A DNA stretch of 31,594 nucleotides. Source: Sulfurimonadaceae bacterium (lineage in GTDB: Bacteria; Campylobacterota; Campylobacteria; Campylobacterales; Sulfurimonadaceae). Where the stretch lies: contig JBFEYF010000001.1 of the NCBI GenBank assembly GCA_041562295.1, positions 1 to 31,594 on the forward strand, read 5' to 3'. A model generated the notes under the pieces. It was not told the DNA's origin and did no database searches. It saw nothing but the letters and a program-made list of their open reading frames with translations. The translations under genes and the position numbers were made by a program. Within the stretch, counting starts at the first letter, position 1. Each line of letters opens with the position of its first letter. Positions 18,097 to 22,249 of the stretch are shown in pieces.

Positions 18097-20565
18097 ATGC
18101 GTATCGTGATAGTGGGTGGCGGAATCGCTGCGGTCTATATAGCCAACAAGTTGCTTGAGCTCAATCCTCAAGTCGATGTTCTGATCGTCTCAAAAGAGCC
18201 CTACTACCCTTATGACAGGATCCATCTTTGCTCCCTGGTCGACCACTCCTGCAGGGTCGATGACATCTATTTGGAACTTAATGATAAAGTCCAAGTCGAG
18301 CTTAACCAGGAGATCATCTCTATCGAGACACAAAGCAGATGTGTCCGCTCCGAAAAACAGTGTTACGACTATGACTACCTTATCGTTGCCACCGGTTCAA
18401 AACCCAAAGAGCTTTTCGACATCGCCCATATAGAAAATGCTACGACCTTCCGAAGCGCCAATGACTCATTCCGTATCGCCGAAGGGATCAAGGGTAAGAA
18501 TGTCGTCATCATGGGTGTAGGCCCTATCGGTATCGAGCTTTTAGACACCTTGATGAAGATGAAAGATGCCAAGACGATACGGTTGATTTCACGCGGCGAG
18601 CACCTCTACTCCAAAGACCTGAACCCTGACTCCGTCAAGATGATCCAAAAGATCTTTGAAGCCGATCCCCGTATCACTATCTCATTTAACGATGCCGTCA
18701 CCGATGCCACCACGCAAGGAAACCGCTACACCCAGCTGATGACAAAAAAAGGTCCCATTGATGATCCTTTTCTGATTTTCGGTGTCGGTATAGACCCCAA
18801 TGTCGATTTTGCCAAAGGGGCCGTCGATATCAACCGCGGGATTTTGGTCAACGATATCATGCAATCTTCCGATCCCCGTATCTTTGCCGTCGGAGAAGCT
18901 GCAGAACTGCAAGAGGGCGGTTTTGTTGCCGGACGTGTCAAAGAGTGTACGCTCCAAGCCGATGTCGCCATTGCCAATATCCTGGGTATCGAGCCTTTTG
19001 AGTTTGAGCAGCAGATCGCCATCGACGGGCTTAAAGTCGGCTCTTTTCTCTTTACCGACGTATCTTCTCCTGAGTATGACCCCAAAGATGAAGATAATGA
19101 GAATATCATCATCTCATCCAAAAAAGAGGAGCGTATCGATCAGTACATACTGAAAAACGACAAACTGATGCGCTTTATCGGTATCAATACCAACATTGAC
19201 GTCATGCAGCTTAAACGCCTGATCGAAAACGACCAGTCCGTTGATGCCTCCTTTTTATATGCCAACCGTCTCCAAAGTGAACGCGGCAGGCTGGTCTGCA
19301 GCTGTGCATCGACCTACGAGCTCGATATCATCGAAACAGTCAAAGAGAATGCCATCACGGAGTTTGGCGAGCTAAAACCTTTTTGCGAAGCGGGACGTGT
19401 CTGCGGGCGCTGTAAGAAAGATGTCGTCGACCTGATTGCCGCAACGCCGGTCGATCCCGAAGAGGCAGCAAGAATCAGGGCCGAAAAAGAGCGTCTCAAA
19501 GAGGAAGCGCGTCTGGCCAAAGTCAAAAAACGTATTGACAAGTTCAATGCGCTGCATCCCAAAAACCAGATCGATGCCGGTAACCTCAAAGAGGCAATGG
19601 ACTCTTTTGACATGAGTCACGAGTTTAACCGCTGGGTCTCTATGATCACAGCATCCATGCGTCTGCATCCAGAGTATGAAGGTATCGTCAAAGAGAGTGT
19701 CCAGCAACTGAACAAGATCCCTATCATCTGGCTGGAACTTTCCGACTGTACCGGAAACTCCGAAGCCTTTATCAAGACTGCCCACCCCAAAGTCGATGAC
19801 CTGATCCTTAAATATATCTCATTGGATTATCATGAACTGCTGATGGCGGGATCCGGAGACCAATCCGAATCAGCCCTGGATGACGTGATCAAAAATGACA
19901 AGGGCAACTATATCCTGATCGTCGAAGGGGCCGTACCGTTGGCTATGGATGGCAAGTTTTTACGTATCGGACCCAAGGGAGAGACCGGACTGGAACTGCT
20001 AAAACGTGTCGCCAAAGATGCCGCGGCGATCCTTTCGGTGGGTTCTTGCGCCTTTGACGGAGGTGTCGTAGCGATCGAACCCAATCCTACGGGAGCCGTC
20101 GGTGTGGCCGAAGCATTGGGCCGCAACGATATCATCAACCTTCCTGGATGCCCGACCAACCCGATCAATATCGTAGGAACCCTGCTGCACTACATCATGT
20201 TTGAAGAGCTACCCGAACTGGATGAGCGCAACCGTCCGCTTTGGGCCTACTCTCAGCGAATACACGACAACTGTGAAAGACGCGGTCATTATGACCTGGA
20301 TGAGTTCGTCTTGGAGTGGGGAGACGAAGGGGCCAAGCAGGGATGGTGTCTGTTCAAGATGGGATGTAAGGGTCCCTATGCCGATCTTAACTGTTCACTG
20401 GTTAAGTTCAATGAGGGAACGAGCTGGCCGGTACAGGTAGGTCACGGCTGTTTCGGATGCGGACAGGGCAAAATCGCCTTTGAGCACCTGGCCAATAACC
20501 GGGAAGTAACCGATGAAGTCAAAACACTGCTGGAAGATGAAAAGGGAGAGACTCATGGCAAATAA
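18097..20565 (+). CDS. Fusion protein: NirB-like FAD/NAD(P)H oxidoreductase + BFD-like [2Fe-2S] + [NiFe]-hydrogenase small subunit
   Basis: GGGIAA, YDRIHL, ATGS, GVGPIGIE and FAVGE (pyridine nucleotide-disulphide oxidoreductase fold). C401-S-C403...C436-G-R-C439. Then IWLELSDCTGN, GSCAFDGG, PGCP, HDNC..CLFKMGC and NC..WP..GHGCFGC. Confidence 0.9.
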   Translation: MRIVIVGGGIAAVYIANKLLELNPQVDVLIVSKEPYYPYDRIHLCSLVDHSCRVDDIYLELNDKVQVELNQEIISIETQSRCVRSEKQCYDYDYLIVATGSKPKELFDIAHIENATTFRSANDSFRIAEGIKGKNVVIMGVGPIGIELLDTLMKMKDAKTIRLISRGEHLYSKDLNPDSVKMIQKIFEADPRITISFNDAVTDATTQGNRYTQLMTKKGPIDDPFLIFGVGIDPNVDFAKGAVDINRGILVNDIMQSSDPRIFAVGEAAELQEGGFVAGRVKECTLQADVAIANILGIEPFEFEQQIAIDGLKVGSFLFTDVSSPEYDPKDEDNENIIISSKKEERIDQYILKNDKLMRFIGINTNIDVMQLKRLIENDQSVDASFLYANRLQSERGRLVCSCASTYELDIIETVKENAITEFGELKPFCEAGRVCGRCKKDVVDLIAATPVDPEEAARIRAEKERLKEEARLAKVKKRIDKFNALHPKNQIDAGNLKEAMDSFDMSHEFNRWVSMITASMRLHPEYEGIVKESVQQLNKIPIIWLELSDCTGNSEAFIKTAHPKVDDLILKYISLDYHELLMAGSGDQSESALDDVIKNDKGNYILIVEGAVPLAMDGKFLRIGPKGETGLELLKRVAKDAAAILSVGSCAFDGGVVAIEPNPTGAVGVAEALGRNDIINLPGCPTNPINIVGTLLHYIMFEELPELDERNRPLWAYSQRIHDNCERRGHYDLDEFVLEWGDEGAKQGWCLFKMGCKGPYADLNCSLVKFNEGTSWPVQVGHGCFGCGQGKIAFEHLANNREVTDEVKTLLEDEKGETHGK

Positions 20566-22249
20566 GAAGATCGTAATTGATCCTATCACCAGGATCGAAG
20601 GGCATCTACGTGTCGAAGTGGAAGTGGATGAGAACAATATCGTAACCGAAGCGTGGGCCTCGGGGCAGCTCTTTCGCGGTATCGAAACGATTCTCAAAGG
20701 GCGTGACCCCCGAGATGCGGGGCTTATCGCCCAGCGTATCTGCGGTGTCTGTACCAATGTCCACTACCGTGCCTCTATCTCAGCCGTAGAGGATGCCTAT
20801 GATATTTCCCTTCCGCCCAATGCCGAGATCATCCGTAACATGGTCACCCTCGCCCTTTTTATGCAAGACCATATCGTTCACTACTACCACCTGCACTCTC
20901 TGGATTATGTCGATGTGGTATCGGCTTTGGAAGCGGATCCCGGAGCCGCATCGGAGCATGCATTGCAGTTTCATGAACACCCCTACCGTAACTCGACAGG
21001 TCACTTAAGCGCCGTCAAAGAGAAACTCGCCTCTTTTGTCAAAGCGGGACGCCTGGGGCTCTTTGCCAACGGCTACTGGGGTCATGCCACCTATAAGCTT
21101 TCGCCCGAAGAGAACCTCATCCATATGAACCACTACCTTGAGGCGCTTCGCATACAGCGGGAGCTCTCTAAAGCGATCGCCATCTTCGCAGGGAAAACAC
21201 CTCATCCCCAAAATCTTGTTGTGGGAGGTGTGACCAGCGTTATGGATATGCTCAACCCCCAAAGGCTCAATGATTTCATGTTTATCATCAAAGAGTCCCG
21301 GGAGTTTATCGAAAGAGCCTATATCCCGGATATGAAGATGATCGTCAAGGCCTACGGTGAGGAGATCAAGGCGGGTTACGGACGCGGCAGCGGGAACTTC
21401 CTGGCATGTGGGGGCTACCGGTTTGGCAAACAGGATCAGCTCTTTACAGACGGCGTCGTCACGGAGCACGATTTCACCAATATCGCACCCTTTGATGACA
21501 CCAAGATCACCGAAGAGGCCTCCCGTTCCTGGTATAAGGAGGATGCACCGTTATCGCCTTACGAGGGGGACTCCACCCCGGAGTATACCGATCTCAATCC
21601 TGACGGGACACTTAAAACCGAAGGCAAATATTCCTGGGTCAAAGCACCCCGTTATGAAGGCAAACCCATGGAGGTAGGTCCTTTGGCACGTATGGTTATA
21701 GGCTATGCCAAAGAGTCTAAGATCATCAAACCCTATATGCAAAACTTTATGGATGCTACGGGGATGTCACTGTTAGACTTCTCTACATCCATCGGGCGTA
21801 ATGCGGCCCGAGCTGTCGAAGCCCAGGTGTGCGGTGACTATATCTTTGACTTCGTCAGTGACCTGATCGAAAACATCAAATATTATGATGAAGAGACCTG
21901 GACCAAGTACACTTTCGAAGAGCTGCCTAAAGAGGCTAAAGGACGCGGTATCTTTGAAGTACCGCGTGGCGTACTTTCGCACTTTGTCCGTATCGAAGAT
22001 GCCAAGATCGCCAACTACCAGGCTGTTGTACCGACAACGTGGAACGCTTCGCCTAAAGATGCCGACGGCGTCAGAGGCCCCTATGAAGCTTCGATCATCG
22101 GTATCAAGCTGGAAGATCCCAGCCAGCCGCTGGAGGTACTGCGGGTCGTACACTCTTTTGACCCCTGTCTGGCCTGTGCCGTGCATGTCATCGACCCTCA
22201 GGGTAAAGAGCTTTCGCAATATAAGATCCCAAGCAGCTGTTCGGTGTAG
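20555..22249 (+). CDS. [NiFe]-hydrogenase large subunit, group 1-type
   Basis: DPITRIEGHL, L1 QRICGVCT, KTPHPQN, EVPRG, L2 SFDPCLACAVH followed by a 20-aa extension. Start at MANKK (20555) after GGGAGA. Confidence 0.95.
   Translation: MANKKIVIDPITRIEGHLRVEVEVDENNIVTEAWASGQLFRGIETILKGRDPRDAGLIAQRICGVCTNVHYRASISAVEDAYDISLPPNAEIIRNMVTLALFMQDHIVHYYHLHSLDYVDVVSALEADPGAASEHALQFHEHPYRNSTGHLSAVKEKLASFVKAGRLGLFANGYWGHATYKLSPEENLIHMNHYLEALRIQRELSKAIAIFAGKTPHPQNLVVGGVTSVMDMLNPQRLNDFMFIIKESREFIERAYIPDMKMIVKAYGEEIKAGYGRGSGNFLACGGYRFGKQDQLFTDGVVTEHDFTNIAPFDDTKITEEASRSWYKEDAPLSPYEGDSTPEYTDLNPDGTLKTEGKYSWVKAPRYEGKPMEVGPLARMVIGYAKESKIIKPYMQNFMDATGMSLLDFSTSIGRNAARAVEAQVCGDYIFDFVSDLIENIKYYDEETWTKYTFEELPKEAKGRGIFEVPRGVLSHFVRIEDAKIANYQAVVPTTWNASPKDADGVRGPYEASIIGIKLEDPSQPLEVLRVVHSFDPCLACAVHVIDPQGKELSQYKIPSSCSV

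What the first reader, a model, noticed from the sequence alone, without database searches (positions are those of the whole stretch)
19612..19737. Fossil Tat signal peptide buried inside the fusion, with the twin arginines lost
Seen: just before the small-subunit core the protein reads MSHEFNRWVSMITASMRLHPEYEGIVKESVQQLNKIPIIWLE. From memory, Campylobacterota HydA leaders read roughly SRRDFMKW....TA.L.LP..F......A.E...R.PVIWLH. The F, W, TA, L and P-x-I-W spacing lines up without gaps, but RR is replaced by SH and the h-region has gained charged residues. Inference: the gene arose by fusing the flavoprotein onto an exported group 1b small subunit and inactivating export. This independently supports a cytoplasmic location.
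Basis: partly seen in the sequence, partly recalled or inferred. Interest (0 to 1): 0.75.

Follow-up and report, generated by a model that had tools for sequence, protein, structure and literature searches.

The report
Remnant Tat leader inside fused hydrogenase
A disabled export signal (twin arginines lost) survives in the middle of a flavoprotein-fused nickel-iron hydrogenase subunit. It shows that this cytoplasmic enzyme descends from an exported, membrane-bound one, and its conservation suggests the old signal was re-used as a helical linker.

Summary
Residues 507-539 of the 822-aa fusion protein (nt 19615-19713) align without gaps to the RR-to-cleavage-site part of Tat leaders of exported Campylobacterota/Aquificota [NiFe] small subunits. 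With mature domains excluded, the profile-profile P is 4e-13. An anchored PSSM score of 30.8 bits is the maximum of about 740,000 33-mers in this genome.

None of 140 fusion homologues has RR; all 101 exported relatives do. Generic Tat models do not hit the segment, the h-region has become amphipathic, and the AxA site is degraded. The homology probably continues upstream through the leader's n-region, from about residue 470, but that evidence is weak.

The closest unfused relatives are cytochrome-b-linked, membrane-anchored small subunits that share the unusual CxGN proximal-cluster motif, not the classical CTGCSES HydA.

The remnant is not decaying. It is as conserved as the [2Fe-2S] domain, and AlphaFold2 predicts it as confident helices, so it was probably co-opted as a structured linker.

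The fused enzyme and its missing RR motif have been published since 2006, and earlier reports in this scan found the same fusion on other DNA. The retained leader was not described in any paper I could search. The precedent for this kind of remnant is NarG's remnant Tat peptide.

The parts
18097..20565 (+). 822-aa fusion gene. Pyr_redox_2 flavoprotein (residues 1-~395), BFD-type [2Fe-2S] domain (399-448), helical linker plus remnant leader (452-539), group 1 [NiFe] small subunit (540-~795), hydrophilic tail.
   Evidence: Pfam and NCBIfam hits, with TIGR00391 hydA at 362 bits against a cutoff of 179.5. More than 700 homologues.
19450..19524 (+). Charged helix (residues 452-476) between the BFD domain and the remnant leader.
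   Evidence: AF2 places a helix at 454-486 with pLDDT about 90 in the second model. No counterpart in Tat leaders beyond about residue 470.
19525..19614 (+). Probable remnant of the leader's n-region (residues 477-506; KRIDKFNALHPKN... against K.RL..L.KLPK... in precursors).
   Evidence: Collinear in the full-leader alignments, 66-67 columns. Alone it reaches only P about 0.01. R479, I480, K482, N484, L486, H487 and P488 are invariant or nearly invariant in the family.
19615..19620 (+). The two codons that correspond to the twin arginines (S507, H508).
   Evidence: 0 of 140 fusions have RR. Position 1 is N/S/K and position 2 is R/K/H/Q. These are the most variable columns of the region, at 1.92 bits entropy. 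The TIGR00391 alignment starts at profile position 18, just after RR.
19621..19671 (+). Former RR-box tail and h-region (residues 509-525, EFNRWVSMITASMRLHP), now an amphipathic helix.
   Evidence: hhalign P=3.7e-13 for the 33-mer. W513, S515, T518 and L523 are invariant. Helical hydrophobic moment is 0.33 against 0.20, and mean hydrophobicity 0.06 against 0.34. AF2 helix at 507-520, pLDDT 76-88.
19672..19713 (+). Former c-region and signal-peptidase site (residues 526-539). A-E-A in precursors is K532-E533-S534 here.
   Evidence: Column comparison. AF2 helix at 525-535, pLDDT 85-92.
19714..19737 (+). Start of the mature small-subunit fold (KIPIIWLE, residues 540-547).
   Evidence: Solved mature group 1 small subunits begin aligning at protein residues about 536-539, with Z about 30 and rmsd about 2 A.
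19747..19758 (+). Proximal-cluster motif C551-T-G-N554, with Asn where classical enzymes have the second Cys. This marker is shared with the closest exported relatives.
   Evidence: All 72 tier-2 proteins read DC[AD]GN[ST]E. The RR-bearing P0245 reads CTGNSEA and sits next to the fusion clade.
20473..20565 (+). Hydrophilic C-terminal tail in place of the membrane-anchor helix of exported relatives.
   Evidence: The TIGR00391 match ends at profile position 300 of 365. Tier-2 C-termini carry a hydrophobic ...LGLLTATAVGIGIHAAASA.AGKK stretch that is absent here.
20513..22249 (+). [NiFe] large subunit. It is followed by a NicO-like gene and hypBCDEA, and no cytochrome b gene.
   Evidence: PF00374 at 683 bits, plus the downstream Pfam hits. 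It is the only large subunit in the genome.

Best explanation
Residues about 470-539, and securely 507-539, are the remnant of a complete twin-arginine (Tat) signal peptide. The ancestor was a periplasm-facing, membrane-anchored, cytochrome-b-linked group 1 [NiFe] small subunit of the CxGN-motif lineage. A BFD [2Fe-2S] domain and a NirB-like FAD/NAD(P)H module came to be encoded in frame upstream of the whole precursor, leader included. The leader was thereby buried mid-protein.

Shown: the segment is homologous to Tat leaders. RR is lost throughout the family. The hydrophobic core has changed into an amphipathic, more charged sequence. The AxA site is lost. The C-terminal anchor and the cytochrome b gene are lost. 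The fusions have a single origin among RR-bearing relatives.

Inferred: the enzyme stays in the cytoplasm as one roughly 90-kDa small-subunit polypeptide. The remnant no longer targets anything. It has been co-opted as a structured helical linker (helices about 494-503, 507-520 and 525-535) that joins, and probably positions, the flavoprotein/[2Fe-2S] module on the hydrogenase core. That role would explain why the remnant is kept under purifying selection.
For: Homology: (P from 1e-8 to 4e-13; genome-wide maximum PSSM score; sole significant genome hit of a leader-only HMM). phmmer alignments to unfused precursors start inside the leader. Loss of function as a signal: RR in 0 of 140 fusions against 101 of 101 exported relatives. 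PF10518 and TIGR01409 hit the tier-2 controls above cutoff but not residues 455-560, even at E<=10. Hydrophobicity and charge have shifted. TatC is present in the genome, so the loss is not due to a missing pathway. Ancestor type: the tier-2 operon reads SSU(Tat, anchor)-LSU-cytochrome b-HycI, and the W[IL]EL.DC.GN motif is shared. Single origin and direction of change: fusion clade supported at 100/99, with every other clade RR-bearing, E. coli outgroups included. Selection: entropy is 0.92 bits for residues 509-539, against 1.16 for the flavoprotein, 0.93 for BFD and 1.92 at the RR positions; there are many invariant residues. Structure: AF2 of residues 452-822 has pTM 0.85, with the remnant helices at pLDDT 76-92. 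The mature fold starts at about 536-539. No separate expression: no promoter-like site upstream of M506, the only GAGG lies 17 nt upstream, and M506 is replaced by I, L or G in other fusions.
Against: There is no experimental evidence on localisation, processing or activity for this protein. No RNA runs hold it. The n-region part of the remnant is not significant on its own. With HydA-type leaders, a single-sequence HMM search is not significant genome-wide (E=0.28). The linker role is inferred from conservation and pLDDT only. Model coordinates and contacts were not available, and the full-length model was poor in this region (pLDDT 42-61). Real leaders in the second alignment may inflate confidence there. 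Deep branching among the fusion, tier-2 and HydA clades is unresolved, and the position of P0174 is unstable, so the exact donor lineage is not fixed.
Confidence: 0.85

Rival explanations
1. Neutral fossil. The segment is a decaying leftover that serves only as a spacer, with no sequence-specific role.
For: The RR positions are free to vary. No dedicated partner protein was found. The full-length AF2 model gives low confidence here.
Against: The region is as conserved as the BFD domain and more conserved than the flavoprotein. W513, S515, T518, L523 and L538 are invariant across sequences that are otherwise 50-77% identical. The same residues are kept in the distant BFD-only variant P0162. The changes are directional, towards an amphipathic helix, not random.
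Confidence: 0.2
2. Chaperone-docking remnant, as in NarG/NarJ. The disabled leader is kept because a maturation factor still binds it to coordinate Fe-S insertion or large-subunit docking.
For: Precedent: the RR-less remnant Tat peptide of NarG is the NarJ binding site and is helical (Ize et al. 2009, as cited in PMC4159696). Tat leaders of hydrogenase small subunits are bound by dedicated chaperones (Schubert et al. 2007, listed in PMC13673990). The remnant is strongly conserved.
Against: HybE-type and HupH-type chaperones were not found in this 95%-complete genome. The HyaE model hit only thioredoxin-like ORFs, and the same model also rings in 10 of the 14 control genomes. No such gene lies in the operon.
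Confidence: 0.15
3. Still a working signal. The small subunit is made or cleaved separately (start at M506 or proteolysis) and reaches the membrane or periplasm through a degenerate leader.
For: M506 is Met in 117 of 140 fusions. Tat is present. One family member each has KR, RK or KK at the RR positions.
Against: There is no RR, no hit to Tat models and a weakly hydrophobic core. There is no Shine-Dalgarno sequence at proper spacing and no promoter. M506 is I, L or G in other fusions. The -3 position of the former cleavage site is K, S or E. There is no membrane anchor and no cytochrome b.
Confidence: 0.03
4. Chance or convergent similarity between an amphipathic linker and signal peptides, or the reverse direction of change (leaders derived from a linker).
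For: The segment is short and helical, and the single-sequence HMM E-value against HydA-type leaders is only 0.28.
Against: Profile-profile P ranges from 1e-8 to 4e-13, with shuffle and reversal controls. The register is gapless at 33 residues in every family. The PSSM score is the genome-wide maximum. The fusions are one derived clade among RR-bearing lineages, including the E. coli outgroups.
Confidence: 0.01

Closest known systems
Remnant twin-arginine signal peptide of E. coli nitrate reductase A (NarG), after Ize et al. 2009, Microbiology 155:3992 (cited in PMC4159696)
   Same: An RR-less vestige of a Tat leader kept on a non-exported redox enzyme whose relatives are exported. It is conserved and helical, and it marks a change of the enzyme's topology during evolution.
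   Different: NarG's remnant is at the N-terminus and has a known partner, NarJ. Here the remnant lies about 470 residues inside a fusion protein, in a [NiFe]-hydrogenase small subunit, and no partner chaperone was found.
'Cluster I' flavoprotein-fused hydrogenase of Hydrogenovibrio (Thiomicrospira) crunogenus XCL-2 and SP-41 (Tcr2037/2038), with homologues noted in Sulfurimonas, Sulfurovum and Sulfuricurvum (PMC1635747, PMC4744846, PMC6501319)
   Same: The same two-domain small subunit (813 aa there, 822 aa here), no RR motif, no cytochrome b and a proposed cytoplasmic location. The large subunit is assigned to group 1b.
   Different: Those papers call the Tat signal absent or lost, and raise the possibility that the enzyme is degenerate. 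None describes the retained, conserved leader remnant. I did not examine the Hydrogenovibrio sequence itself.
Tat leaders of membrane-bound, cytochrome-b-linked uptake hydrogenase small subunits of Campylobacterota and Aquificota (the ~411-aa CxGN type, e.g. Arcobacter, Hydrogenimonas, Nitrosophilus, Persephonella; and the Wolinella-type HydA)
   Same: Residue-by-residue correspondence over the 33 columns from RR to the mature N-terminus: [DE]-[FY]-x-[KR]-W-V-S-x-x-T-A...L...[FY]...V...N. The n-region is probably shared too. The W[IL]EL.DC.GN motif that follows is the same.
   Different: Those leaders are N-terminal, carry RR, a hydrophobic core and an A-x-A site, and hit PF10518/TIGR01409. 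The window's segment has none of these.

Membership tests
Functional Tat (twin-arginine) signal peptide | Located at the N-terminus of the precursor | tested here: not met
   The segment begins about 470 residues into an 822-aa ORF. There is no supported internal start.
Functional Tat (twin-arginine) signal peptide | Consecutive arginines in the S/T-R-R-x-F-L-K box | tested here: not met
   S507-H508 here, and 0 of 140 family members have RR.
Functional Tat (twin-arginine) signal peptide | Uncharged hydrophobic h-region followed by an A-x-A peptidase site | tested here: not met
   Kyte-Doolittle -0.07 against 0.60-0.65 in real leaders. R522, H524 and E526 lie inside the core. A-E-A has become K-E-S.
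Functional Tat (twin-arginine) signal peptide | Recognised by the curated models PF10518 / TIGR01409 | tested here: not met
   No hit for residues 455-560 at E<=10. Three tier-2 controls score 23.7-26.1 bits against a cutoff of 22.7.
Remnant (vestigial) Tat signal peptide on a non-exported enzyme (NarG type) | Demonstrable homology to the Tat leaders of exported relatives | tested here: met
   hhalign P=3.7e-13 and 2e-12, with shuffle controls, an anchored PSSM and a leader-only HMM.
Remnant (vestigial) Tat signal peptide on a non-exported enzyme (NarG type) | Twin-arginine motif lost across the family | tested here: met
   0 of 140.
Remnant (vestigial) Tat signal peptide on a non-exported enzyme (NarG type) | Host enzyme is cytoplasmic | not testable with these tools
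   Inferred from the loss of RR, of the membrane anchor and of the cytochrome b gene. There are no localisation data.
Remnant (vestigial) Tat signal peptide on a non-exported enzyme (NarG type) | Retained as the binding site of a maturation chaperone | tested here: inconclusive
   HybE-type and HupH-type proteins were not found. The HyaE hits are unspecific. Binding itself cannot be tested here.
Group 1 [NiFe]-hydrogenase small subunit (TIGR00391 hydA) | Score above the curated cutoff, and the three-cluster fold | tested here: met
   362.5 bits against 179.5. Z about 30 and rmsd about 2 A to solved group 1 small subunits. The proximal motif deviates (CTGN).
Flavoprotein-fused 'cluster I' hydrogenase (Hydrogenovibrio XCL-2 type) | Pyridine-nucleotide-disulfide oxidoreductase module fused N-terminally to the small subunit; no RR; no cytochrome b | tested here: met
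   Domain architecture and operon content, compared with the descriptions in PMC1635747 and PMC4744846. No direct sequence comparison with Tcr2038 was done.

The most novel reading that the evidence does not exclude
The buried leader is not a scar but a working part. After losing its targeting role it became a sequence-specific helical arm. It either docks the [2Fe-2S]/flavoprotein module within electron-transfer distance of the hydrogenase clusters, or it still recruits a maturation factor. Either way the enzyme would need it to assemble or to couple H2 to NAD(P)+. This would be a documented case of a signal peptide converted into an interdomain structural element. The BFD-only protein P0162 and the tandem RR-less copy P0244 may be surviving intermediates.
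Probability: 0.45. Interest if true: 0.6.

Novelty: new variant of a known kind. Interest (0 to 1): 0.45.

Why it matters
The finding fixes the evolutionary direction for a widespread enzyme. The fusion occurs in 18 of 301 sampled genomes of the phylum and 10 of 58 genera, and it has never been characterised biochemically. A respiratory, periplasm-facing uptake hydrogenase was turned into a cytoplasmic enzyme, presumably NAD(P)-linked, by fusion plus inactivation of its export signal.

It also bears on the published suggestion that the enzyme may be degenerate because it 'lost' its Tat signal. The signal is still there, it is selectively maintained, and only the targeting determinants are erased.

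Finally, it extends the concept of remnant Tat peptides from molybdoenzymes to hydrogenases, and to an internal position. That defines a concrete segment (residues 507-535) to mutate when the enzyme is expressed.

Tried and rejected
- A leader-only HMM built from the classical HydA-type precursors did not reach genome-wide significance for this single sequence (E=0.28, tied for top place). Significance came from the closer tier-2 leaders, from profile-profile comparison and from the anchored test.
- n-region-only comparisons reached only P about 0.01, so I do not claim the upstream extension as proven.
- The RR-to-end HMM alone gave E=0.094 genome-wide.
- The full-length AF2 model (55 close sequences) had pTM 0.56, with pLDDT 42-61 in the linker and a poor small-subunit domain. 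It was not used for placement.
- In the first tree one row (VAR_L037) was badly extracted and should be ignored. P0174 was sister to the fusions but sister to the HydA clade, so I do not name it as the donor.
- No RNA runs hold the sequence; only four marine DNA metagenome runs do.
- Chaperone searches (HyaE, HybE, HupH) gave nothing specific.
- Literature searches for the fusion plus Sulfuricurvum, and for remnant signal peptides in hydrogenases, found no description of the remnant.
- Complex prediction was not used. SSU-LSU binding is not in question, and its output would not show where the remnant sits.
Full report
**The object.** It is residues 506-547 of one uninterrupted 822-aa ORF, 18097..20565. 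The ORF has these domains:
- Pyr_redox_2 flavoprotein, residues 1-272 plus a reductase C-terminal part.
- BFD-type [2Fe-2S] domain, residues 399-448.
- [NiFe] small subunit: Oxidored_q6 at 551-698 and NiFe_hyd_SSU_C at 718-792. TIGR00391 scores 362 bits against a cutoff of 179.5.

The TIGR00391 alignment starts at profile position 18, which is immediately after the position of the RR box. Downstream lie the large subunit, a NicO-like gene and hypBCDEA, with no cytochrome b gene.

In this 95%-complete genome this is the only small subunit and the only large subunit. TatC and a HycI-type protease are present.

**Real comparison sequences.** Instead of relying on remembered leaders, I took small-subunit genes from 81 genomes of the same order. 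Thirty Tat-bearing HydA-type precursors read M..(about 40 aa..RL..L.KLPK....SI...LEE.G)SRRDFMKWAGAMTAMLSLPASFTPLVAKAAELADRLPVIWLHMAECTGCSES.

A protein search with residues 506-822 showed that the nearest unfused relatives (50-55% identity) are a second type of about 411 aa. They come from Arcobacter/Aliarcobacter, Hydrogenimonas, Nitrosophilus, Persephonella and Venenivibrio. Their leaders read ..RRDFMKWVSATTAMLMLPxSFEPLVAEAxELMNRVPVIWIELQDCAGN[ST]EA. They share with the fusion the unusual W[IL]EL.DC.GN motif, and they end in a hydrophobic anchor.

In one such genome the operon is SSU-LSU-cytochrome b-HycI-HypF. This is a classical membrane-bound uptake enzyme.

**Is the similarity more than chance?** All tests excluded the mature domain.

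| Test | Result |
|---|---|
| hhalign, 90 residues before the mature N-terminus (120 fusions) vs HydA-type leaders | P=1.1e-8, 66 columns |
| Same vs tier-2 leaders | P=2e-12, 67 columns |
| 100 column shuffles of the target | score 11.2+-2.5, maximum 19.2; observed 46.3 |
| Reversed target | score 12.7 |
| Same vs HydA-type | P=7e-9 |
| Tier-2 leader-only HMM vs all 16,882 six-frame ORFs of the genome | this protein is the only significant hit, E=2.2e-4, residues about 470-536 |
| Anchored gapless PSSM on S507-N539 | 30.8 bits (tier-2) and 20.2 bits (HydA-type); each the maximum of about 740,000 33-mers in the genome, z about 8 and 6 |
| HydA-type leader-only HMM, single sequence, genome-wide | not significant, E=0.28 |
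| n-region alone | P about 0.01 |

The core of the finding is secure. The upstream extension to about residue 470 is probable but not proven.

**What has changed.** The spacing is fixed at 33 residues in all 72 tier-2 leaders, in 29 of 30 HydA-type leaders and in all 140 fusions. The column comparison gives:
- RR is 100% conserved in the 101 exported proteins and present in none of the 140 fusions. Position 1 is N/S/K and position 2 is R/K/H/Q.
- The flanking D-F-M-K-W-V-S-A-T-T-A has become E-[YF]-N-[RK]-W-V-S-M-I-T-A.
- The L-P-x-x-F-x-P-L-V-A-E-A stretch has become L-H-P-x-[YF]-E-x-x-V-[KSE]-[EKQ]-[GSA], so the A-x-A site is lost.
- h-region hydrophobicity falls from 0.60-0.65 to -0.07.

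The helical hydrophobic moment rises from 0.20 to 0.33. PF10518 and TIGR01409 hit three tier-2 controls above cutoff but do not hit residues 455-560, even at E<=10. The segment therefore fails every defining feature of a working Tat signal, while being clearly homologous to one.

**Not a decaying fossil.** In a 55-sequence alignment of fusions (65-77% identical overall), mean column entropy by region is as follows.

| Region | Entropy (bits) |
|---|---|
| Residues 509-539 | 0.92 |
| Residues 477-506 | 1.04 |
| Flavoprotein | 1.16 |
| BFD domain | 0.93 |
| Small-subunit core | 0.43 |
| The two RR-equivalent positions | 1.92 |

W513, S515, T518, L523 and L538 are invariant. They stay invariant when fusions only 51-56% identical in this region are added.

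AF2 on residues 452-822 with a diverse alignment gave pTM 0.85. It predicts these helices:
- 454-486.
- 494-503, pLDDT about 65.
- 507-520, pLDDT 76-88.
- 525-535, pLDDT 85-92.

Solved mature small subunits begin to superpose at residues 536-539, with Z about 30. That places the remnant exactly N-terminal to what is the processed N-terminus in exported enzymes. I could not read contacts, and the full-length model was poor in this region. The docking role of these helices is therefore an inference.

**Direction of change and origin.** In both trees the fusions are one clade (100/99; 89, and 98 together with P0162). That clade sits in an unresolved radiation with the tier-2 and HydA-type clades, and E. 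coli HyaA and HybO lie outside it. Every non-fusion lineage there carries RR, so the ancestor was exported.

The closest RR-bearing rows are long-branched and unstable: P0174, and P0245, which reads CTGNSEA. I do not name a donor.

The published classification of the fused enzyme's large subunit is group 1b (PMC4744846, PMC6501319). I could not run HydDB.

The fusion occurs in 18 of 301 sampled genomes of the phylum and in 10 of 58 genera. At 50% clustering the family collapses to two or three representatives.

**Separate expression.** I found no support for it:
- There is no promoter-like site upstream of M506.
- The only GAGG lies 17 nt upstream of that ATG.
- M506 is I, L or G in other fusions.
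- No RNA data exist for this sequence.

**What is known.** Scott et al. 2006 described the two-domain small subunit of T. crunogena XCL-2. [quoted passage not shown] Hansen and Perner 2016 and Gonnella et al. 2019 repeat this. They list homologues in Sulfurimonas, Sulfurovum and Sulfuricurvum, and consider that loss of the Tat signal, cytochrome b and Fe-S motifs might mean an inactive enzyme (PMC4744846 and PMC6501319).

Earlier reports of this scan reached the same reading of the fusion on other DNA. None of these sources mentions that the leader is retained as a conserved internal remnant, and my searches found no such description for any hydrogenase.

The concept itself is established for NarG, whose remnant Tat peptide binds NarJ (Ize et al. 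2009, cited in PMC4159696). HybE-type and HupH-type chaperones were not found here, and the HyaE hits were unspecific.

**Verdict.** It is a new variant of a known phenomenon, sitting in an already described enzyme. Interest is moderate.

Noticed in passing
L059:2530-3771 (protein P0162, Logan DRR090687 contig): A 413-aa small subunit with only the BFD [2Fe-2S] domain, the remnant leader and the hydrogenase part, and no flavoprotein. hypB lies upstream in the opposite orientation. The large subunit and HycI lie downstream. Its remnant looks more leader-like (GVAPREFNNWVSQVVSTMGLSSNYTPLAKDG) and its proximal motif is SCTGDSEA. It branches as sister to all flavoprotein fusions (SH-aLRT 98). It could be an intermediate, or it could reflect secondary loss.
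   Followed up: partly
L061:4660-7110 (GCA_021378565.1; proteins SSU1 and P0244): Two small-subunit genes sit in tandem ahead of one large subunit, cytochrome b and HycI. The first has a Tat signal. The second (369 aa, shorter than the 412-aa first copy) keeps the leader but reads DDEKFIKW in place of RRDFMKW. This is an independent case of RR loss with the leader retained.
   Followed up: partly
L037:480-2111(-) and L038:144-1841(-); also P0253, P0263: Small subunits of 543-594 aa with the classical CTGCSES motif, an RR-less N-terminus that resembles a leader, and a C-terminal extension of about 200 aa with no Pfam hit. They come from other families of the order.
   Followed up: no
window 19747-19758: The CTGN proximal-cluster motif (Asn for the second Cys) is not special to the fusion. 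All 72 of the closest exported, cytochrome-b-linked small subunits read DC[AD]GN[ST]E. It is a lineage trait that predates the fusion.
   Followed up: partly
G000 whole genome: The fused enzyme is the organism's only [NiFe]-hydrogenase: one small and one large subunit were found in a 95%-complete assembly. Several relatives carry it alongside a Tat-exported enzyme (for example G024 and G060).
   Followed up: partly
window 20513-20565: The longest large-subunit ORF overlaps the end of the small-subunit gene by 53 nt. Family matches begin at residues 16-18 (NCBIfam) and 55 (Pfam), so the true start may lie downstream of 20513.
   Followed up: no
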